From Candidatus Latescibacterota bacterium (lineage in GTDB: Bacteria > Latescibacterota > UBA2968 > UBA8231), in contig JAJEFJ010000104.1 of NCBI GenBank assembly GCA_022820485.1, forward strand, positions 52,968-116,967: a DNA stretch of 64,000 nt, read 5' to 3'. Under the pieces are notes generated by a model that did no database searches, was not told the DNA's origin, and saw only the letters and a program-made list of their open reading frames with translations. Positions 8,099 through 52,473 of this stretch are shown here, in pieces. The position numbers and the translations under genes are program-made. How positions within the stretch are numbered: position 1 is the first letter of the stretch; each line of letters starts with the position of its first letter.

Positions 8099-8641
8099 TT
8101 GATCGTGATCCGATTCATTGACAAATCCATCATCGGCTTAGCACTCGCGTTGGCGGCGAGTTGCTTGGGATGCTCCGAAGACGAGCCAACCGCGTCTGAG
8201 GCCACTCAAGCCAGCACCATCGTCAACCCCACGGAGGGCAACGAAGCCCAAGGGACGGTTGAGTTCACGCAGGAAGCCGACGGGGTGCGAGTTATAGCCA
8301 ACCTGACCGGGCTTACCGAAGGCGACCACGGATTTCACATCCACGAAAAGGGCGATTGCAGCGCAGCCGATGGCACGTCGGCGGGCGGTCACTTCAATCC
8401 CGAAGGCAAAGCCCACGGCGCACCCGATGCCGCTGAACGGCACGTCGGCGACCTTGGCAATATCACCGCCGACGCCTCTGGGCAAGCCACTTACAACCGC
8501 CTCGACACCCACCTCGACTTGGATGGCGACAACAGCATCATCGGGCTGGCAGTCATCGTTCACGCGCTCCCGGATGATTTTTCACAACCCACCGGGGCGG
8601 CCGGTGCCCGCGTCGGTTGTGGGGTCATAGAGGGTCGATAA
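8099..8641 (+). CDS. sodC: Cu/Zn superoxide dismutase, lipoprotein
   Basis: The hallmark motifs GFHIHEKGDC, GGHFNP, HVGDLGNI and RVGCGVI are present. The signal peptide has lipobox LAASC. The RBS AAAGGAGG lies at 8091-8098, so the likely start is the GTG at 8105 rather than the TTG at 8099. Confidence 0.85.
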   Translation: MIVIRFIDKSIIGLALALAASCLGCSEDEPTASEATQASTIVNPTEGNEAQGTVEFTQEADGVRVIANLTGLTEGDHGFHIHEKGDCSAADGTSAGGHFNPEGKAHGAPDAAERHVGDLGNITADASGQATYNRLDTHLDLDGDNSIIGLAVIVHALPDDFSQPTGAAGARVGCGVIEGR

Positions 8642-8792: not shown

Positions 8793-11732
8793 TTATCGGC
8801 GGGCGACCAATTCTTCTAGCTGCCAGTCGAGCGGGATGCGCATCCGCCCCTCGTTGCGGCGGTCGAAGAGCAGGTAGTTTTCGCGCAACCCGAAGTAGAA
8901 CAAGTCGCGGGTCAGTTCCACGTCCTTTTGGCAGTACTCGGCAATCAAATCCAGCCGCCCCTCTTTGAACCACCGCAGCGCGTCCAACCCGTCGGCGCTC
9001 TTGGCGGCGTCGAGCGTGGCCCGGCCCAGCGAATCGAGGCTCACCCGGTAGCGCAGCCGCTGGTGGATTTCGCGCAGCATGTCGAGCGTGTTGAGCGTGC
9101 GGAAGTCATAAGGGCTGTACCCGCGCAAGACCGAATAATCAAAGCCGATGATGTTGAAGCCGACGACCAAGTCGGCCGCCTGGAGGTGCTCTAAGAGCCG
9201 GTCGATGTCTTCCTCAAAATACTTGGTGCAGGCCTGTTGGCGGCTGTCCCACACCACGCCGACCGACATGCCCATCATGTGCGCTTTATTCCAGCCGCCG
9301 ACCTCGGCAGCCGAGCGCTGGGTTTCGAGGTCAAACACCACCACGTGTGGACCTTGTTCGGGCGGCATTTCTTTTACCTCCTCCTCCTCTTCCCACTCGG
9401 CAAAAATCGGCGCGTCCTCTGCGCTCTCGGACTTCGGCGAGCTCAGTCGAGCCGCTGTGGACGCGGTGCACTCGATGGCCCGGTGGCCCGTGAGCGCGCC
9501 GAGCAGGTGGATCGCGCCAGCCTTGTCAAGGGGGACGTTGCCCGCGCCGCACGTGGGGAAATGGATGCAAGACGGGCAGCCGAGCAAGCAATCGCAGGTT
9601 TCGACCATGGACAGCGTCATGTCCAAAAGGCGATCGAGTTGGGCAAAGCCCTTTTCCGCCAAGCCAATGCCGCCGGGGTGATAGTCGTACACGAAAATCG
9701 CGCCCTTGCCGAGCTGGGGATGCTGTGGATAGCAAATCCCGCCGACGTCCGTGCGGTCGCACAGGGCTAGCAGCGGGAAGAGCGACTTCATGGCGTGTTC
9801 AATGGCGTGGATCGAACCCATGTAGTGGTGCTGGTGGCGGCTGAGATCGGCCTTGAAATGGGCGTCCAGCTCAATCCAGAAGCCAATCGTCTCAAAGTGC
9901 TCCACCGGCGACTCCAGCTCGTGTTTGCTGAGCACGACTTGGTCGCCGACGCGGATCTTTTCGTAGCCCACCACCTGCGAGCTGACCTTGAGCCGGCCCA
10001 ACCGCGCCATAAAGCCCTGCAAGGGCCGCGAGCGCAACTCCTCCAAGGTCTCGGTGTCCTTTGCCGTGCGGGCGCACGTGAAGTACGCCACATCCACTTC
10101 CTCGGCGTAGATCTGGCCCCGCTCGGGGTTGCGGTCGCCGATCTCGTACTGGCGGCCGCGGTGCAAGTAAATCGCGCCTTTGTAGCACTCGCCATACACC
10201 TGACCGCCACTGACCGTGCCAATCTGGTTGTCGCCGCGACCGACGATGCGATACGACTCGCCGATGGTGCGCATGTTGACCAAGCGGTGCGGCTGCTTGC
10301 GCGCGGCAAACCAAGCGTCGCCCTCGGCGTTCTGCAGCAGCATCCCCTCCTCGGTCAACGCATCAATCGCCGCCTGATAGTTGGGCAGTGCGTATTCTGG
10401 TTCGCTAGCTACGAGGGGCAGCTCGCGCGCCGCACACGTGAGGTGATTTTTGAGGATGTACTGATTCGTCGGATCCACCACCGCGTCCTCTAAATCGCGC
10501 ACAAAAAAGTCCCCCGGATGCCGCATAAAGTACTGATCGAGCGCATCGGGAGAGGCGATGAGGAGGATGAGCGACTCGCGGCCGGCGCGGCCCACGCGGC
10601 CAGCGCGCTGCCAAGTGTTGATGATCGAACCCGGATAGCCGACCAACACGCAGATGTCCAAGCCGCCGATGTCAATGCCCAGTTCCAAGGCCGACGTGGC
10701 CACCACGCCCTTGAGCTCGCCGCCGTTGAGGGCCTGTTCGATCTGGCGGCGCTCGGTCGGCAAATAGCCGGCGCGATACGAGGAGATTCGCTCCCGCAAG
10801 TCCGGGCGGCTCTGGGTGGCCCAGCGGTACACCAGTTCGGTGGTGATGCGGGCGCGGGTGAAGACAATCGTGCGATAGTCTTGGAGCACGCTGGCGCGCA
10901 GCAGGTGGGCCGCGAGGGTGTTGGGGCTTTCGCTCGGGTTGACGAACACGAAGTGGCGCGCCGCAGCCGGAGCGCCGTGATCTTCAATCGCGTAAAAGGA
11001 GCGGTTGAGCAGTTCCCCCGCCAGCTCACGAGGATTGCCCATCGTCGCCGAGCTGGTGATGTACACCGGATCGGACCCGTAGTGCGCGCAGATGCGGTTC
11101 AAGCGGCGAAAAAGGTGCAGGACGTGGGAGCCAAACACGCCGCTGTACGCGTGCAACTCGTCGATGACCACGTAGCGCAGGCGAGCGAAAAAACCGGCCC
11201 AAGCCTCGTGGAAGGCGAGGATGCCCGAGTGCAGCATGTCCGGCGTGGTGAACAGCACCTGCGGTGGCTTATTGCGAATTTGCCGACGGCGATGGCTCGT
11301 GGTGTCGCCGTCGTAAATGGCCGCTTGCAGCGTGCCGCCTAAGCCCTGCATCAGGCCGCTTAGCTCGTCGAACTGATCCTGCTCCAGCGCCTTGAGCGGA
11401 AACACGTAGAGCGCGTGCGCCTCTGGGTCGTCGAGCAGCGTGGCCAGCACGGGCGCGTTGTACACCAAGGTCTTGCCCGAGGCCGTGGGCGTGGCAATGG
11501 CCAAGTGCTGACCCTCCAGCACTTTTTGGATGCCCTCGGCTTGGTGCGTATAGAGCGCGGGAATGCGGGCGATTTCGAGGATGCGGGCCATGGCCGGAGG
11601 CAAACCAGCCAAGTCGCGGACTAGACGCGCCGGGCGCGCGGGCAAGGTCTGGTGATGGACGACCTCGTTGCCCAAGATGCGGCGTTTGAGAAAGCGAATG
11701 TGCTCGGCGATGCTCTCGGCGTCGCTGATCAA
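8793..11732 (-). CDS. YprA/MrfA-like DEXH-box helicase with a DUF1998 zinc module, fused to a C-terminal DEDDy 3'-5' exonuclease domain
   Basis: Motif I TPTASGKT, motif II VVIDELH, then the helicase C-terminal domain. The DUF1998 Cys cluster is CDCLLGCPSC...CG. After the linker ...TAARLSSPKSESAED the ORF continues ~200 aa with Exo I VVFDLET, Exo II GFNIIGFDYSVL and Exo III YCQKD. Confidence 0.8.
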   Translation of the reverse strand: MISDAESIAEHIRFLKRRILGNEVVHHQTLPARPARLVRDLAGLPPAMARILEIARIPALYTHQAEGIQKVLEGQHLAIATPTASGKTLVYNAPVLATLLDDPEAHALYVFPLKALEQDQFDELSGLMQGLGGTLQAAIYDGDTTSHRRRQIRNKPPQVLFTTPDMLHSGILAFHEAWAGFFARLRYVVIDELHAYSGVFGSHVLHLFRRLNRICAHYGSDPVYITSSATMGNPRELAGELLNRSFYAIEDHGAPAAARHFVFVNPSESPNTLAAHLLRASVLQDYRTIVFTRARITTELVYRWATQSRPDLRERISSYRAGYLPTERRQIEQALNGGELKGVVATSALELGIDIGGLDICVLVGYPGSIINTWQRAGRVGRAGRESLILLIASPDALDQYFMRHPGDFFVRDLEDAVVDPTNQYILKNHLTCAARELPLVASEPEYALPNYQAAIDALTEEGMLLQNAEGDAWFAARKQPHRLVNMRTIGESYRIVGRGDNQIGTVSGGQVYGECYKGAIYLHRGRQYEIGDRNPERGQIYAEEVDVAYFTCARTAKDTETLEELRSRPLQGFMARLGRLKVSSQVVGYEKIRVGDQVVLSKHELESPVEHFETIGFWIELDAHFKADLSRHQHHYMGSIHAIEHAMKSLFPLLALCDRTDVGGICYPQHPQLGKGAIFVYDYHPGGIGLAEKGFAQLDRLLDMTLSMVETCDCLLGCPSCIHFPTCGAGNVPLDKAGAIHLLGALTGHRAIECTASTAARLSSPKSESAEDAPIFAEWEEEEEVKEMPPEQGPHVVVFDLETQRSAAEVGGWNKAHMMGMSVGVVWDSRQQACTKYFEEDIDRLLEHLQAADLVVGFNIIGFDYSVLRGYSPYDFRTLNTLDMLREIHQRLRYRVSLDSLGRATLDAAKSADGLDALRWFKEGRLDLIAEYCQKDVELTRDLFYFGLRENYLLFDRRNEGRMRIPLDWQLEELVARR

Positions 11733-12015: not shown

Positions 12016-14216
12016 GTGAAATCCTTACTGCAAAATTTTACGTCCGAGCTTCGCGCCGACATCCTGTCTGCGAAGGCCGTTCCAGCGCTGTCAGCCGGCT
12101 TCACCTCGGGCCTAGGCCTGCTCGTCTCCCAGATTGCCTTCGGGAGCTTCATATTCTCGGGGCCGTTGGCCTCCTATTCCTCCCAAGGCGTCGGCCTAGT
12201 GCTGTTCGGGAACTTCGCGGCGTGCCTGATCATCGCCCTCGCGGGCGGCTACCTCGGCGCGATTGCGGGGTTGTCTCCCGCGCTGGTGATCGTCATGGCC
12301 ACGGTCGGCTTCACAATGAGCGCCGAGGGCGACGCGCTGTTCGTCACCACCGCGGTCGCGCTCATCATCAGTGCCGTCGCCACTGGCGCGTGCTGTCTCC
12401 TGATCGGGCGATTCCGGCTCGCCAATCTAGTCCGCTTCATCCCCTATCCAGTGACGGGTGGGTTTGTAGCTGGGATCGGGGGAGCCGTGTGCTTGGCGGC
12501 CATGTCGTTGATGGGAGCCAAACCAGATTGGCGGGCGATTCCCGCACTCTTTGAACCCTCTGTGCTGTGGAAGTGGAGCCCGGGTGCGGCGTATGGGATC
12601 GCCTTGTACCTCGCGATTAAGCGCTGGGGCAATCCGCTGATCTTGCCGGTGAGCGTCGCACTGGCCGGCGCTGCGTACCATCTCGTACTCGCCAGCCTCG
12701 GCATTTCGGTTGAAGCGGCGCGGGCGGAGGGCCTGCTGCTTACGAGCACCGCGGACGGGAGCCTGTGGCCAGCTTTGTTCCCTGCCGATCTGGTGCACGT
12801 GCAATGGGCCTCAATGGCCGAGCAGGCTCCCTACATGCTGACGCTGATCTTGGTCGCTTTCATCTGCGTAATCATGAATTTTGCCGGTCTCGAATTGGCG
12901 ACGAACAGGAGTTGGACTGGGACCGGGAGTTCCGGGTGACGGGCGTCGCGAGTATGGTCGCTGGTCTAGGTGGCGGCACAGTGGCGACCTTTGTCGTACC
13001 GGCTTCCCTGCGCAGCAAGCTGCTTGGAGCCACAACAAGGTTGACTGGGGTGGTTTCCGCCCTCGTGATCGGAGTCGCATTGTTCCTCGGCGACGGAATA
13101 CTGGGATTCGTCCCTGCTTCACTCGTAGGAGGAGGCATCCTGATCTTTGCCGGACTCGGCATGTTAGACGAAGGTCTCGTGAAAAGCCGCAAGCGGCTCC
13201 CTTGGTCGGAGTACGGCATCATTCTGTTGATTTTTATTGCGATCCTGTCCTTCGGACTGATCGAGGGTGTGGGCGTTGGGATGCTGGCCACCCTCGTGTT
13301 CTTTGCCGTGCGACTCAGCCGCGTGGACCCAATCGCATCACAGTTCACCGCGCACGAGCGCGAGAGCAACAAGACCCGTCCCGTTCCCGATCTCGCCATC
13401 CTACTGGAGGAGGGCGAGCGGGTGCAGGCATACCAACTGCGCGGCTACCTCTTTTTTGGCAGCGTGTGCCCCCTCGCCGATCATCTCAGGCAGTCCCTGA
13501 GCGGCGCTTCGCATCCTACTTGTCTGATACTGGACTTCAGTGCCGTTTCCGGCTTCGATTTTTCGGCAGTGAACGTCCTGAGCAGGTTTCTGCAAACGGC
13601 ACACGCTGCTGGTGTACGAGTAGCTCTGAGCGCATTGTCCGAGGGATTGCGGACCGGATTTGAACACAACCTTCCGCCTGCCGCATATGCCGAGTTGCTG
13701 GTGGAGCCGGATGCGGACCGCGCCCTCGAGCGCTGTGAGGACATCGTCATTGCGGAATGGAGGACGAACGTGGACATGGCGGACGAGCGTCGCGCTTCGC
13801 TGATGGAACACACCGTCGATGATCTAGAGCGCTACCTAGAGCGACAAATTGATTTCGAAAATCTGCTGGAGGAACTCCGACCTTGGCTGAATTCGCGCCA
13901 GTACGCTGCCGGCGAGGCTCTCGTAGGACCGGATGCGCCGCAAGAAGGTCTGCAATTGCTGCTTGCGGGCCGGGCTTCCGGCTACGATTCCGCGGGTACG
14001 CGCCTGTTTCAATGCGGCCCGGGCGATGCGATATGGCCGATGGGCGCGTCGGACCAGAAAGCAGCCTCTGTGGTTGCAGACGACTCCTGCCAAACGATGG
14101 TGCTGACCCCGGCCGACCTAGGCTGGCTGGAGCAGCACGAAGAGCGGCTTACCTTCAAGCTGTATCGCTACCTCTTCGCCGGGCGGCTCCAATCCGGATC
14201 GGGAGCGGAGCAATAG
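12016..14216 (+). pseudogene. SulP/SLC26 family anion (sulfate) permease with STAS and a C-terminal cNMP-binding-like domain; reading frame interrupted near 12893-12935
   Basis: The GTG at 12016 opens a SulP N-terminus (frame 1) ending NFAGLELATNRSWTGTGSSG* at 12939. The SulP signature continues in frame 0 (DWDREFRVTGVASMVAGLGGG...) through a STAS domain (YQLRGYLFFGSV...ILDFSAVSGFD) and a cNMP-binding-like tail to 14216. This is a single-nucleotide frameshift, real or a sequencing error. Confidence 0.5.
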
Positions 14217-14328: not shown

Positions 14329-14691
14329 ATGACTTGGACAGTCGAGATCGCCGACGAGTTTGAGCCGGAATTCGACAGTCTGCATGAGGATGTGCAAACC
14401 GAGATCCTAGCGCTGTCGCGTCTGTTGCAGCAGTTCGGGCCGCAACTAGGACGGCCCCGAGTAGACACGCTGAACGGCTCCCGCCACGCGAACATGAAGG
14501 AGATGCGGTTCAGCGCTGCAGATGGGGAATGGCGTGTAGCGTTTGCCTTCGATCCGACGCGCAAGGCCGTCCTGCTCGTCGCGGGCGACAAGTCTGGAGT
14601 CAACACCAGACGGTTCTACCGTGCGCTCATCCGCAAGGCTGACGAGCGATTCAATCGACATTTAGCCTCGCTCGCGAAGGAAGGAGATTGA
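14329..14691 (+). CDS. Type II toxin-antitoxin system toxin, RelE/HigB (Gp49-like) family
   Basis: 120 aa with the pattern ...LGRPRVDTLNGSRHANMKEMRF...WRVAFAFDPTRKAVLLVAGDKSG. It is immediately followed, with overlap, by an HTH gene. Confidence 0.65.
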   Translation: MTWTVEIADEFEPEFDSLHEDVQTEILALSRLLQQFGPQLGRPRVDTLNGSRHANMKEMRFSAADGEWRVAFAFDPTRKAVLLVAGDKSGVNTRRFYRALIRKADERFNRHLASLAKEGD

Positions 14692-14693
14692 TG

Positions 14694-15020
14694 ATGGCTT
14701 TGAACGTAGAAGACAAGATTGCGACGCTGGACCCCGCTCGGCGACGCAAGGTCGAGGATCGGGCGGCAGAACTCATTGCCGAGGAGATGACTCTGCGCGA
14801 ACTGCGCAAGGCCCGGCAACTCACCCAGGCGCGCGTCGCGCACCAACTCGGTATCTCGCAGGACGGCGTCTCGCGGCTCGAGCAACGAAGCGATCTGTTG
14901 CTCTCGACGTTGCGCAAGACGGTGGAGGCCATGGGCGGCAGTCTTGCGCTCATCGCTAGATTCCCCGACCGTCCGCCGGTCGAACTGTCAGGCATTGCCG
15001 ACAGCGATCTCCGCGATTGA
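14694..15020 (+). CDS. XRE-family HTH antitoxin (HigA-like)
   Basis: The helix-turn-helix is LRELRKARQLTQARVAHQLGISQDGVSRLE. The RBS GAAGGAAGGAG is 6 nt upstream of the ATG at 14694. The upstream toxin's stop overlaps the alternative start at 14688/14691. Confidence 0.65.
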   Translation: MALNVEDKIATLDPARRRKVEDRAAELIAEEMTLRELRKARQLTQARVAHQLGISQDGVSRLEQRSDLLLSTLRKTVEAMGGSLALIARFPDRPPVELSGIADSDLRD

Positions 15021-34178: not shown

Positions 34179-35195
34179 TTAGCGCTCCCTCGGCTGAGCT
34201 CGGGACTTCGGCGAGCTCAGTCGAGTCGTCGAAGCCTCGCTCCGCAAATCCAGCCACGCCATCTCCGCCTCAGTGAGCGGATTGTCGAGAGCCTGCTCAT
34301 TGGCCGCGATCTCATCGCCGCTCATGCTGCCGACCAAGGCGTAGATGTCGAGCGGATAGCTGAGCACGTACGACAAGGCTACCTGCGGCACTGACAGCCC
34401 TTTTTCTTCCGCCAGTGCCCACGCGCGGTCGAGCCGTGTGAAGTTGTCCTCGCAGTAGTACGATTTGGGCATAGTGCCGTCGAATTGGTCGCGCACTTGC
34501 TCGGCGTTGGCGCGGGTGACTTTGCCTGAGAAGAAACCGCGGGCCACGCTAGACCAAGTAAAAAGCGGCATATCGTTTTCGGCGTACCATTCGCGGGCGG
34601 CAGCTTGGCCGGGCCCCGCAATCGACAGGCAATCCTTCCACGGCTCGGCGATCTGATCCGCCAAGCTAAAGTTCGGGCTGGAGGCGGCGAACGGCACGAG
34701 CCCGCGTTTGTCTGCGTATTCATTGGCCTCGGCCAAGCGCTCCGGCGTCCAATTCGAGCCGCCAAAAGCGTGGATGCGGCCAGCCGCGTGATGCTCATTG
34801 AGCGCCTCGACGATGGGGCCGACCGGGACCGCCGGATCGTCGCGGTGCAGCAGGTAGAGGTCGATGTAGTCGGAGCGCAGGCGCACGAGCGAGTCGGCCA
34901 TGTCCGAGGCGATGTCGTAGGGGGTGACGCGGTTGCGGTCTTGGTTGAGATGGGCGCCCTTGCCGATGATGACGATTTCATCGCGATTGCCCCTTGCCTC
35001 CATCCACAGCCCCAGCATGCGATCCACTTCCCCGCCGCCGTAGCCGTGAGCCGAATCGTAGGTCGTGATGCCGGCCTGCCAAGCAGCGTCGAGCAGAGCA
35101 AAGCCTTCTTCCTTGTTACTGCGATTGAGCATGATGGAGCCTTGAACTATGCGCGAGATTTTCTTTTCGATGCCTTGTACGTTGCCGTATTGCAC
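34179..35195 (-). CDS. Aldo/keto reductase
   Basis: AKR landmarks are present (DSAHGYGGGE, IIGKGAHL, YLLHRDDP...). The C-terminal tail ...[17 protein letters not shown] is atypical. It is encoded by a 23-bp segment identical to 9428-9450. Confidence 0.8.
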   Translation of the reverse strand: MQYGNVQGIEKKISRIVQGSIMLNRSNKEEGFALLDAAWQAGITTYDSAHGYGGGEVDRMLGLWMEARGNRDEIVIIGKGAHLNQDRNRVTPYDIASDMADSLVRLRSDYIDLYLLHRDDPAVPVGPIVEALNEHHAAGRIHAFGGSNWTPERLAEANEYADKRGLVPFAASSPNFSLADQIAEPWKDCLSIAGPGQAAAREWYAENDMPLFTWSSVARGFFSGKVTRANAEQVRDQFDGTMPKSYYCEDNFTRLDRAWALAEEKGLSVPQVALSYVLSYPLDIYALVGSMSGDEIAANEQALDNPLTEAEMAWLDLRSEASTTRLSSPKSRAQPRER

Positions 35196-40400: not shown

Positions 40401-41261
40401 GATCAAGACGTGGGTCTGCCGCTGGCGGTATTCATAGCGAAAATCTTCGTCTGGACCAAAGACCGGCACATCAAATCCCTCAATCACGCCGGCGTTGTCG
40501 GAATATGCCTTAACCGTGCCTTCGGGATGGGCCGCGTGTGTGTGGCGAATCATATCGAAGAGCGACCGCGCCTCGTGCTGGCCGTCTATGATCCAGTCAG
40601 CATTGAAAATTTTGTGGCGGCAGTGCTCGGAATTGACCACCGCAAACATCATCAACTCCACGTCGGTCGGGTCGCGCCCCGCAAAGGCGTGCAGTGCGTA
40701 GTCAATCTCCTCGTCCGAAAGGGCCAAGCCCATCTCGCGATTGGCATCCACGAGCGCACACCGCCCCTCGGCCCGCACCGGGATGTGGACTAGTGGTTTG
40801 GGATCCACGCGGCGAAAGAGGGTCTCTAAGGAGTCGAGCGGGGCCTCGATCATGCGGTCGTAGAGCAGCGGCAAGACGACTCGACTGAGCTCGCCGAAGT
40901 CCGCACTGGGCACGGTGTCGGCGGCAAAGGCATACAGCGTGCCGCGCTCGACGCGACGCACGAATTCGAGGCCACAGTTTTTGAGGATGTCGGTGGCTTT
41001 GCTCGACCACGGAGACGTCGTGCCCGGCCGCGGGCCAATAGTCACCTCATTGTGCGCCCGCGTCGGCAGGGTAGCGTCCACGTCGAGAATGCGCATGAGC
41101 CGCGCCATCTCATCGTCAGCTAAGGCGCGTGTGCATTGCACGGCATAGAAGTACGTGGCACTCAGATCTTCAACTTTGGGCGCGCAACGCTGGCAGCGCG
41201 CTAGCAGCGACCGGCGGCGAAGAGACGACAGAGCCGGGGGGCCGACAAAGGCGAGTAGCAT
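37404..41261 (-). CDS. purL: Phosphoribosylformylglycinamidine synthase, single-chain large form
   Basis: 1285 aa. The N-terminus [20 protein letters not shown]...YFYAV parallels E. coli PurL (GSPALSAFRINKLLARFQ). The C-terminal glutaminase domain has the catalytic Cys (GVCNGCQML). Confidence 0.9.
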
Positions 41262-52396: not shown

Positions 52397-52473
52397 TGGT
52401 GGGCGATACTAGACTTGAACTAGTGACCTCCTGCATGTCAAGCAGGCGCTCTAGCCAGCTGAGCTAATCGCCC
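52397..52473 (-). tRNA. tRNA-Val (anticodon GAC)
   Basis: The minus strand reads GGGCGATTAGCTCAGCTGGCTAGAGCGCCTGCTTGACATGCAGGAGGTCACTAGTTCAAGTCTAGTATCGCCCACCA. It folds as a cloverleaf with an anticodon loop TTGACAT and an encoded CCA. Confidence 0.85.

What the first reader, a model, noticed from the sequence alone, without database searches (positions are those of the whole stretch)
8793..11732. MrfA/YprA-like DEXH helicase + DUF1998 fused in one polypeptide to a DEDDy 3'-5' exonuclease domain
Residues 1 to ~760 are a YprA/MrfA-type helicase. Motif I is TPTASGKT and motif II is VVIDELH. The DUF1998 four-Cys cluster is CDCLLGCPSC...CG. After a short acidic linker (...SAEDAPIFAEWEEEEEVKEMPPEQ) the same ORF continues for ~200 aa with all three exonuclease motifs in order: Exo I VVFDLET, Exo II GFNIIGFDYSVL and Exo III YCQKD (a DEDDy-type RNase D/WRN-like proofreading fold). 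In Bacillus the helicase MrfA works with a separately encoded exonuclease (MrfB) in nucleotide-excision-independent repair of mitomycin-C adducts. Here the two activities are a single Rosetta-stone fusion. The linker codons include a 23-bp segment that recurs elsewhere (see separate finding), which hints at how the fusion arose.
Basis: partly seen in the sequence, partly recalled or inferred. Interest (0 to 1): 0.65.

Follow-up and report, generated by a model that had tools for sequence, protein, structure and literature searches.

The report
MrfA helicase fused to DEDDy exonuclease
One real, conserved gene joins a DNA-repair helicase of the MrfA/YprA family to a proofreading-type 3'-5' exonuclease, but this architecture is common in uncultured bacteria and has been mentioned in the literature, so it is a solid find rather than a new kind of thing.

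Summary
Window 8793-11732 (-) is one uninterrupted 979-aa ORF. Residues 24-724 align end to end with B. subtilis MrfA/YprA (PDB 6znp, E 2.7e-146). They carry DEAD, Helicase_C, WHD_HRQ1 and MZB/DUF1998 domains. After a ~30-residue disordered acidic tether, residues ~796-979 form a DEDD exonuclease fold (AF2 pLDDT 90). Its best structural matches are the T7 and family-B polymerase proofreading domains, and it matches phrog_403 "DNA polymerase exonuclease subunit" at E 1.4e-16. D801, E803, D865, Y933 and D937 are invariant in 60 full-length homologs.

The fusion is not an artefact. The exact protein is in NCBI, ENA and Logan, and all 120 best homologs (61-95% identity; Gemmatimonadota, Latescibacterota, Tectomicrobia, Handelsmanbacteria, Myxococcota) are fused.

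It is not new. Burby & Simmons and Bell et al. mention MrfA fused to MrfB homologs.

The exonuclease is only a remote relative of MrfB. Both have PF13482 and phrog_403 as best families, but this one is DEDDy rather than DEDDh, lacks the TPR domain, and shows no significant direct profile match.

The 23-bp linker repeat is real. It lies in a 24-nt in-frame insertion found only in this sequence, and it is a copy of a mini-element seen in at least 120 metagenome contigs. It says nothing about how the fusion arose.

The parts
8793..11732 (-). Whole ORF, 979 aa: MrfA/YprA-type helicase, flexible linker and DEDDy exonuclease (stop codon 8793-8795)
   Evidence: The exact protein is in public collections.
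9561..11663 (-). Residues 24-724: region aligning in one stretch with B. subtilis MrfA/YprA (PDB 6znp residues 21-731)
   Evidence: E 2.7e-146, 492 bits, single stretch, no large insertions.
11031..11549 (-). RecA1 / DEAD domain (res 62-234). Motif I TPTASGKT is at 11469-11492 and motif II VVIDELH (DExH) at 11151-11171.
   Evidence: (PF00270, 103.9 bits). K87, D191, E192 and H194 are invariant in 60 homologs.
10581..10901 (-). RecA2 / Helicase_C (res 278-384), including motif VI QRAGRVGRAG at 10581-10610
   Evidence: PF00271, 52.9 bits. Q375, R376, G378 and R379 are invariant.
10263..10478 (-). Winged-helix domain of the HRQ1/MrfA type (res 419-490)
   Evidence: PF22982, 40.7 bits.
9564..9803 (-). 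MZB / DUF1998 zinc-binding domain (res 644-723). The four-Cys cluster CDCLLGCPSC is at 9567-9596.
   Evidence: PF09369, 77.7 bits. C713, C715, C719 and C722 are invariant.
9357..9446 (-). Disordered acidic tether (res 763-792) between the MZB domain and the exonuclease
   Evidence: In the full-length AF2 model, pLDDT is below 50 for residues 763-792, while both flanking domains are confident.
9390..9413 (-). Conserved linker motif APIFAEWE (family consensus D-E-P-P-[IL]-F-A-x-W-E)
   Evidence: Conserved in about 50 of 60 full-length homologs. Not ordered in the AF2 model. Function unknown.
9431..9454 (-). 24-nt in-frame insertion (about ARLSSPKS, res 761-768) found only in this sequence. It carries the repeated 23-mer (9429-9451 on the + strand).
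   Evidence: DNA alignment to the closest relative L004. Absent from 15 other close relatives. The 23-mer occurs 3 times in the window and in at least 120 metagenome contigs.
8796..9347 (-). DEDDy 3'-5' exonuclease domain (res 796-979). Exo I VVFDLET is at 9321-9341, Exo II GFNIIGFDYSVL at 9126-9161 and Exo III YCQKD at 8922-8936.

Best explanation
This is a single-chain helicase-nuclease for DNA repair or genome maintenance.

Shown:
- The N-terminal 750 residues are a complete MrfA/YprA-type SF2 DNA helicase (RecA1, RecA2, winged helix, OB/CON region and 4-Cys MZB domain) with every ATPase and helicase motif intact.
- A flexible acidic tether of about 30 residues follows.
- It joins the helicase to a compact DEDDy DnaQ-like domain of the polymerase-proofreading type, with all five catalytic residues intact.

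Inferred:
- By analogy with B. subtilis MrfA (a 3'-5' helicase) and MrfB (a 3'-5' exonuclease), the helicase loads on a 3' single-stranded region or a nick and translocates 3'->5'. This peels the damaged strand off its template.
- The tethered exonuclease then digests the freed single strand from its 3' end. Together they remove a lesion-containing stretch independently of UvrABC.
- Covalent tethering replaces the non-covalent MrfA-MrfB contact.

The exonuclease is a remote relative of MrfB, in a different subfamily that is closer to phage polymerase exonuclease subunits. It is not an MrfB ortholog. The gene is monocistronic and has no conserved partners.
For: - Helicase identity: Pfam DEAD, Helicase_C, WHD_HRQ1 and MZB. 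phmmer to MrfA 6znp gives E 2.7e-146 over res 24-724. The best NCBIfam is TIGR03817 at 672 bits.
- Helicase integrity: motif I, II and VI residues and the 4 Cys are invariant in 60 homologs at 41-95% identity.
- Exonuclease integrity: D, E, D, Y and D are invariant in 50 domain homologs and 60 full-length homologs.
- Link to MrfB: both have PF13482 as best Pfam family and phrog_403 as best PHROG. HHalign puts Exo I and Exo II in register.
- Same pairing as two genes: in L207 a 761-aa MrfA-type ORF is followed in the same orientation by a gene of this exonuclease family.
- Tether: residues 763-792 have pLDDT below 50 in a full-length model with pLDDT 87.8 and pTM 0.85.
- Conservation of the fusion.
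- Established knowledge: MrfA is a 3'-5' helicase, MrfB is a 3'-5' exonuclease, and the two are epistatic and interact (10.1101/426304, PMC7797055, PMC11194089).
Against: - There is no experimental data for any member of this fused family.
- The substrate (DNA or RNA; type of lesion) is inferred only by homology.
- Burby & Simmons found that distant MrfAB homologs (P. aeruginosa) do not complement B. subtilis mutants. They suggested these homologs are 'adapted to other uses'.
- The gene neighbourhood (Cu/Zn SOD, periplasmic binding protein, SulP) gives no functional hint and is not conserved in the closest relative.
- The geometry of helicase-exonuclease cooperation was not tested. The tool returns no inter-domain confidence.
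Confidence: 0.65

Rival explanations
1. Anti-phage or mobile-element defence effector. YprA-family helicases are the core of DISARM, Dpd, Druantia, ARMADA and TALON, and many of these carry C-terminal nuclease domains. On this reading the protein would unwind and degrade invading DNA.
For: - PADLOC models of BrxHI, SngC, DruE, DpdF/J and DrmA hit the helicase core.
- The literature describes C-terminal nuclease fusions in defence YprA clades.
- The exonuclease subfamily is shared with phages. It matches phrog_403, occurs in fusions to Sipho_Gp157/Gam-like domains, and has a close phage structural match.
Against: - The PADLOC hits cover only the generic RecA core (about res 50-390) at no more than 155 bits, against 492 bits end to end to MrfA.
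- There are no BrxA-like or beta-barrel insertions, because the alignment to MrfA is continuous.
- There are no methyltransferase, NERD, TPR-CSD, PLD or other defence partners nearby, and the neighbours differ in the closest relative.
- TALON's RNase H-fold domain is inactivated, whereas this one is intact.
Confidence: 0.12
2. RNA-processing machine. On this reading a DExH helicase is coupled to an RNase D-like DEDDy exoribonuclease for 3' trimming or decay of structured RNA, analogous to Mtr4-Rrp6.
For: - Some homologs weakly hit PF01612.
- NCBIfam lists weak hits to RNA helicases.
Against: - The helicase is full-length MrfA-like, with the OB-CON-MZB canopy that binds ssDNA in MrfA structures (PMC7797055).
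- The best exonuclease matches are DNA-polymerase proofreading domains and phage polymerase exonuclease subunits, not RNases.
- The RNA-helicase NCBIfam hits score at most 33 bits.
Confidence: 0.08
3. The C-terminal domain is a non-catalytic structural or recruiting module, or the fusion is an assembly or frameshift artefact that joins two genes.
For: - The Pfam hit is marginal (18.9 bits in the full protein, 23.1 bits alone).
- Short 'standalone' gene calls exist among close homologs (P0003, P0016).
Against: - All five catalytic residues are invariant down to 41% identity.
- PHROG (E 1.4e-16) and the fold matches are strong.
- The exact protein has been assembled independently (NCBI, ENA, Logan).
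- All 120 best homologs are fused.
- P0003 lies at the end of a 3x-coverage contig with overlapping calls.
Confidence: 0.02

Closest known systems
B. subtilis MrfA (YprA) helicase, PDB 6znp/6znq/6zns
   Same: Same domain order (NTR, RecA1, RecA2, WH, OB/CON, 4-Cys MZB). It aligns in one stretch over about 700 residues at E 2.7e-146, and all motifs are conserved.
   Different: MrfA ends about 20 residues after the zinc cluster (751 aa). Here the chain continues for about 255 residues (tether plus exonuclease).
B. subtilis MrfB (YprB) exonuclease, PDB 8UN9
   Same: It is a 3'-5' DnaQ-superfamily exonuclease that works with an MrfA-type helicase. The best Pfam family (PF13482) and best PHROG (403) are the same. 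Its Exo II motif is of the PolB type (NxxxFD), and its structure is PolB-exo-like (PMC11194089). MrfB also has an N-terminal I-P-[FLY]-x-x-x-W motif (W in 70 of 71 sequences), which resembles the fused linker's P-P-[IL]-F-A-x-W-E.
MrfA-MrfB fusions mentioned in the literature (Burby & Simmons 2018/2019, Fig. 6 legend; Bell et al. [quoted passage not shown]
   Same: Same concept: a YprA/MrfA helicase and a MrfB-like exonuclease in one polypeptide.
   Different: These are only passing mentions. The organism and the exonuclease subtype are not given in the accessible text, so I could not verify that they refer to this DEDDy, TPR-less family. No biochemistry exists.
Proofreading exonuclease domains of family-B and T7 DNA polymerases, and phage 'DNA polymerase exonuclease subunit' (phrog_403)
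   Same: These are the best structural and profile matches, and they share the DEDDy catalytic set.
   Different: No polymerase domain is attached. The partner here is a helicase.
WRN (RecQ helicase + DEDDy exonuclease) and S. aureus DinG (exonuclease + XPD-like helicase)
   Different: The helicase families are different (RecQ; SF2 XPD/DinG with 5'-3' polarity). In both, the exonuclease is N-terminal rather than C-terminal.
TALON YprA helicases (C-terminal inactivated RNase H-fold domain)
   Same: A YprA-family helicase with a C-terminal RNase H-fold domain.
   Different: TALON is largely confined to Chloroflexota. Its helicase is ARMADA-like, with BrxA-like and zinc beta-barrel insertions. 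Its RNase H domain is inactivated. Its operon encodes NERD, TPR-CSD and TBP. None of these features applies here.

Membership tests
MrfA/YprA family SF2 helicase | SF2 RecA1/RecA2 core with motif I (GKT), motif II DExH and motif VI QxxGRxGR | tested here: met
   Pfam DEAD 103.9 bits and Helicase_C 52.9 bits. The motifs are located. K87, D191, E192, H194, Q375, R376, G378 and R379 are invariant.
MrfA/YprA family SF2 helicase | HRQ1/MrfA-type winged helix followed by the OB-CON-MZB (DUF1998) module with a 4-Cys zinc site | tested here: met
   PF22982 40.7 bits and PF09369 77.7 bits. C713, C715, C719 and C722 are invariant. The beta-rich region at res 493-622 in the AF2 model is consistent with OB/CON.
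MrfA/YprA family SF2 helicase | End-to-end similarity to the solved MrfA structure, without the insertions typical of defence clades | tested here: met
   Res 24-724 align with 6znp res 21-731 in one stretch, E 2.7e-146.
MrfA/YprA family SF2 helicase | 3'-5' DNA helicase activity and a role in mitomycin C repair | not testable with these tools
   Requires biochemistry and genetics.
MrfB/YprB exonuclease | PF13482 (YprB RNase H-like) exonuclease domain | tested here: inconclusive
   The window domain scores 23.1 bits alone and 18.9 bits in the full protein (cutoff 22). Relatives score 25-34 bits. True MrfB scores 136-142 bits. PF13482 is the best family for both, but this domain is peripheral in it.
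MrfB/YprB exonuclease | DEDDh catalytic set (His four residues before the last Asp) | tested here: not met
   Exo III is YCQKD. Y933 and D937 are invariant in the family. Bacillus MrfB has HNEID (PMC11194089).
MrfB/YprB exonuclease | C-terminal TPR domain | tested here: not met
   The protein ends 42 residues after Exo III and has no TPR hit. Bacillus MrfB shows TPR hits.
MrfB/YprB exonuclease | Direct sequence or profile similarity to bona fide MrfB | tested here: not met
   phmmer and hmmsearch against the PDB miss 8UN9 at E<=10. The A1 HMM against 71 MrfB sequences gives a best E of 0.066. HHalign gives P 0.08 and probability below 1%, although Exo I and II are in register.
MrfB/YprB exonuclease | Physical or genetic coupling to an MrfA-type helicase | tested here: met
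   It is covalently fused here and in all 120 best homologs. It is adjacent as a separate gene in L207.
DEDDy (DnaQ-like, polymerase-proofreading type) 3'-5' exonuclease | RNase H-like alpha/beta fold of the DnaQ superfamily | tested here: met
DEDDy (DnaQ-like, polymerase-proofreading type) 3'-5' exonuclease | Exo I DxE, Exo II D and Exo III Yx3D, all present and conserved | tested here: met
   D801, E803, D865, Y933 and D937 are invariant in 50 domain homologs and 60 full-length homologs.
DEDDy (DnaQ-like, polymerase-proofreading type) 3'-5' exonuclease | Significant profile match to a curated exonuclease family | tested here: met
   phrog_403 'DNA polymerase exonuclease subunit' at E 1.4e-16 and 61 bits. 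phrog_17 'DNA polymerase' at E 4.4e-12.
TALON defence system YprA helicase | ARMADA-like helicase with BrxA-like and beta-barrel insertions, an inactivated C-terminal RNase H domain, and NERD, TPR-CSD and TBP neighbours | tested here: not met
   The alignment to MrfA is continuous. The catalytic residues are intact. The neighbours are SOD, Peripla_BP_6, SulP, Gp49/HTH and HAD.

The most novel reading that the evidence does not exclude
The fused family is not a joined-up MrfAB operon. It would instead be an independent, convergent recruitment of a phage or polymerase-type DEDDy proofreading exonuclease to an MrfA helicase. The conserved acidic linker peptide (D-E-P-P-[IL]-F-A-x-W-E) resembles the I-P-F-x-x-x-W motif in the N-terminal region of MrfB, the region that Burby & Simmons found to be required for MrfA binding. 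On this reading it would be a shared docking or recruitment peptide that explains how MrfA-type helicases engage their nucleases.
Probability: 0.25. Interest if true: 0.45.

Novelty: new member of a known kind. Interest (0 to 1): 0.3.

Why it matters
The pairing of an MrfA-type helicase with a 3'-5' exonuclease is already established genetically and by two-hybrid assay in Bacillus. [quoted passage not shown] A natural single-chain version is conserved across at least five named bacterial groups. Both of its domains and its short tether are predicted with confidence. That makes it a convenient target for cryo-EM and single-molecule work on coupled unwinding and degradation. It also shows that selection has kept the two activities together repeatedly. 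Thousands of database entries now labelled only 'DEAD/DEAH box helicase' could be given a more informative annotation. Beyond that, the finding confirms existing knowledge and does not open a new question.

Tried and rejected
1. Searching the C-terminal domain directly against the PDB, by single-sequence phmmer and by family profile, gave no meaningful hit. Sequence-only searches against the PDB are too insensitive for this domain.
2. The afdb50 fold library was unavailable.
3. A strict regex for the linker motif matched MrfB sequences only in the B. subtilis/pumilus group. Only the looser I-P-x-x-x-x-W version, with a near-invariant W, holds across Bacillales. The motif link is therefore suggestive only.
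4. I tested intramolecular docking of the linker motif with a full-length AF2 model. The motif stays disordered (pLDDT below 50), so docking is not supported.
5. The idea that the 23-bp repeat explains the fusion is rejected.
6. TALON and defence-system membership is rejected.
7. The fusion as an artefact is rejected.
8. Rfam found nothing for the 23-mer element, and the literature search for its sequence found nothing.
9. Comparing PurL and the aldo/keto reductase with distant solved homologs could not decide whether their 23-mer copies are insertions.
10. The supplements of the two key papers gave no list of fused organisms.
Full report
**Observation.**

The window contains one uninterrupted minus-strand ORF, 8793..11732, of 979 aa with a TTG start.
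- TPTASGKT at residues 81-88
- VVIDELH at 188-194
- CDCLLGCPSC at 713-722
- VVFDLET at 798-804
- GFNIIGFDYSVL at 858-869
- YCQKD at 933-937

There is no stop or frameshift in the linker. The exact 979-aa sequence is on record in NCBI, ENA and the independently assembled Logan collection. Profile searches detect the exonuclease clearly (see below).

**Helicase part.**

Pfam finds DEAD (res 62-234), Helicase_C (278-384), the HRQ1/MrfA winged helix (419-490) and the MrfA zinc-binding domain MZB/DUF1998 (644-723). phmmer against the PDB aligns residues 24-724 in a single stretch with B. subtilis YprA/MrfA (6znp) at E 2.7e-146. The next best hits (Lhr-like helicases, Hel308, RecQ) have E values of 1e-21 or weaker. 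An alignment of 60 full-length homologs at 41-95% identity has these invariant residues:
- the Walker A lysine K87
- D191, E192 and H194
- Q375, R376, G378 and R379
- the four zinc cysteines

This is a complete and presumably active MrfA/YprA-type helicase.

**Exonuclease part.**

Pfam alone is marginal: PF13482 RNase_H_2 scores 23.1 bits against a cutoff of 22 when the domain is scanned by itself. Three independent lines settle the question.
1. In 50 homologs of the domain, D38/E40, D102 and Y170/D174 are invariant. These correspond to D801/E803, D865 and Y933/D937 in the full protein, and they are invariant again in the 60 full-length proteins.
2. An AlphaFold2 model of the last 216 residues is confident (pLDDT 90, pTM 0.82).
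   - Foldseek matches it at probability 1.0 to the proofreading domains of archaeal PolB, HSV Pol, Pol epsilon, RB69 and T7 polymerase.
   - In the viral library the best hit is a standalone 214-aa phage protein (E 6.6e-13, TM 0.72).
3. PHROGs gives a significant profile match to phrog_403 'DNA polymerase exonuclease subunit' (E 1.4e-16) and to phrog_17 'DNA polymerase' (E 4.4e-12).

The domain is therefore a DEDDy exonuclease of the polymerase-proofreading type. RNase D and WRN are more distant members of the same superfamily.

**The fusion is real, old and common.**

The 120 best full-length homologs are 61-95% identical and 895-1136 aa long. All 120 contain FD[LIV]ET downstream of the zinc cluster. 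In the 118 where both CPSC and FD[LIV]ET were found, the spacing between them is usually 78-84 residues. Source names place them in Gemmatimonadota (the >=90% identity cluster of the window protein), Latescibacterota, Candidatus Handelsmanbacteria, Tectomicrobia/Entotheonella (including RefSeq WP_089937185.1) and Myxococcota. All are annotated only as 'DEAD/DEAH box helicase'.

A profile of the exonuclease domain finds 3977 50%-identity clusters at E<=1e-3 and 594 at E<=1e-30. Among the top 150:
- about thirty are full-length proteins with the domain at the extreme C-terminus
- many are fragments
- some are ~180-230-aa proteins that appear to be standalone

The apparently split near-identical relative P0003 lies at the end of a 3x-coverage contig with overlapping gene calls. 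P0018 is a truncated remnant among transposases.

**Split versus fused.**

The standalone ~210-220-aa homologs from Nitrospinae sit in a conserved FliD/FliS neighbourhood with no helicase nearby. In one metagenomic contig (L207) a 761-aa MrfA-type ORF is followed in the same orientation by a separate gene of this exonuclease family. That is an mrfAB-like two-gene arrangement, although I cannot exclude a sequencing frameshift there. The same exonuclease subfamily is also found fused to phage Sipho_Gp157/Gam-like domains.

**Relation to MrfB.**

I retrieved 80 Bacillales mrfA loci, extracted 74 candidate downstream mrfB genes, and kept the 71 of 380-600 aa for the comparisons. Bona fide MrfB:
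- scores 136-142 bits on PF13482 and has TPR hits
- carries the DEDDh motif HNEID

The window's domain differs:
- it is DEDDy and has no TPR domain
- it is not detected by an HMM built from its own family when that HMM is searched against MrfB (best E 0.066 among 71 sequences)
- in HHalign it reaches only P 0.08, although Exo I and Exo II align in register

Both proteins do share the same best Pfam family (PF13482) and the same best PHROG (403; MrfB scores 29-30 bits). I conclude that they are remote homologs within the PolB-type exonuclease clade but belong to different subfamilies. The protein works like a covalent MrfAB, but its exonuclease should not be filed as an MrfB ortholog.

**Linker.**

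The full-length AF2 model is confident overall (pLDDT 87.8, pTM 0.85), but residues 763-792 fall below pLDDT 50. The two modules are therefore joined by a flexible acidic tether of about 30 residues. Within it, the motif D-E-P-P-[IL]-F-A-x-W-E is conserved in about 50 of 60 homologs.

Bacillales MrfB has I-P-[FLY]-x-x-x-W (W in 70 of 71 sequences) in the N-terminal region. Burby & Simmons found that region necessary for MrfA binding. The resemblance is suggestive but short. AF2 does not dock the motif onto the helicase, so its role remains an inference.

**The 23-bp repeat.**

The repeat is real: there are three exact copies in the window, at 9429+, 34203+ and 40880-, with none expected by chance. 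DNA alignment with the closest relative's gene (91% identical over the gapped alignment) shows a clean 24-nt in-frame insertion at about 9431-9454 that carries it. Among the 16 close relatives whose linker could be read, only the window's own sequence has the resulting ARLSSPKS insert. Because the fusion is conserved down to 41% identity, the repeat cannot bear on how the fusion arose.

The 23-mer is found exactly in at least 120 JGI metagenome contigs from many environments, where it has these properties:
- it is followed by YCGC
- it folds as a small hairpin
- it is embedded in several different larger repeats, sometimes as inverted pairs
- it lies mostly outside long ORFs
- it has no Rfam match and no literature match

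It looks like a widespread miniature REP/MITE-like element. The tolerant linker has absorbed one copy in frame.

**Context and function.**

The gene is monocistronic. It converges on a Cu/Zn superoxide dismutase gene and diverges from a SulP transporter gene. The closest relative has different neighbours on one side. No defence genes are nearby. The PADLOC hits cover only the generic RecA core. The definition of TALON, the one YprA clade described as having a C-terminal RNase H-fold domain, is not met.

The best-supported reading is a housekeeping repair enzyme. A 3'-5' helicase peels a damaged or nicked strand off its template, and the tethered 3'-5' exonuclease digests that strand from its 3' end, as proposed for MrfAB. 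The polarity, substrate and lesion specificity are inferred, not shown.

**Prior knowledge and verdict.**

[quoted passage not shown] Bell et al. [quoted passage not shown] The architecture is thus known in outline. It is abundant in databases but uncharacterised biochemically. I rate it a new member of a known kind, with modest interest as a structural or biochemical model. The DEDDy, TPR-less, phage-like nature of the exonuclease and the conserved tether motif are the only features not already described.

Noticed in passing
window 9429-9451 (+), 34203-34225 (+), 40880-40902 (-); loci L085-L164: The exact 23-mer GGACTTCGGCGAGCTCAGTCGAG, usually followed by YCGC, occurs 3 times in the window. 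All three copies lie inside coding regions: the helicase linker, the C-terminal tail of an aldo/keto reductase, and the N-terminal domain of PurL. Its core folds as a hairpin (GCG-A-GCTC / AGTC / GAGC-CGC). The flanks vary, fall into several larger repeat families, and sometimes form inverted pairs 80-200 bp apart. In metagenomes it lies mostly outside long ORFs. There is no Rfam hit and no literature hit. It looks like a widespread miniature REP/MITE-like element that can insert in frame into genes.
   Followed up: partly
window ~12906 (SulP gene, ORFs 12016-12939 and 12765-14216, +): The sulfate-permease/STAS gene is split into two overlapping ORFs by a single-base deletion, relative to the intact 733-aa gene of the closest relative (L004). 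It is either a pseudogene or a sequencing error.
   Followed up: partly
window 9390-9413 (-); MrfB genes in L005-L084: The conserved linker motif D-E-P-P-[IL]-F-A-x-W-E of the fused family resembles I-P-[FLY]-x-x-x-W (W in 70 of 71 sequences) in the N-terminal region of Bacillales MrfB, the region reported to be needed for MrfA binding. Standalone Nitrospinae homologs start with M-[SA]-E-Q-[FL]-x-L-F. AF2 does not order the motif in the full-length model.
   Followed up: partly
window 8793-8860 (-) vs L004 12898-12940: The window protein ends ...LEELVARR, whereas most close relatives end ...LVSGGGRDCPQDG. The window lacks 24 nt near its 3' end. By coincidence this offsets the 24-nt linker insertion, so both proteins are 979 aa.
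   Followed up: no
L002 8001-8666; L205 6001-6639; L206 6001-6636: Standalone ~210-220-aa homologs of the exonuclease domain in Nitrospinae-type genomes share a conserved position next to fliD/fliS, with no helicase nearby. NCBI names some of them 'DEAD/DEAH box helicase', apparently by transfer from the fused proteins.
   Followed up: partly
L207 3564-5849 and 5713/6001-6534: This is a possible genuine two-gene version. A 761-aa MrfA-type helicase ORF is followed in the same orientation by a separate gene of the same DEDDy exonuclease family, and there is no recognisable linker motif. It could also be a frameshifted fusion.
   Followed up: partly
proteins P0394, P0396: The same exonuclease subfamily occurs N-terminally fused to Sipho_Gp157 / Mu Gam-like end-protection domains. 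This points to a phage pool of this domain.
   Followed up: partly
L003 8001-8843: A 280-aa gene retains the tail of the MZB domain plus the exonuclease. It sits among IS66, ISL3 and mutator transposases and PDDEXK/REase genes, so it is probably a truncated remnant of a fused gene.
   Followed up: no
window 8099-8641 (+): A Cu/Zn superoxide dismutase gene with a lipoprotein-like N-terminus lies between the helicase gene and the periplasmic-binding-protein gene. In the closest relative (L004) those two genes are only 158 nt apart, so the SOD gene is a lineage-specific gain or loss.
   Followed up: no
window 14329-15020 (+): A Gp49/HigB-like gene (120 aa) overlaps an HTH_3/HTH_31 gene (110 aa). 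This is a typical HigBA-type toxin-antitoxin pair.
   Followed up: no
window 52400-52473 (-): A tRNA gene (Rfam RF00005, 69 bits) is the only Rfam gathering-level hit in the window.
   Followed up: no
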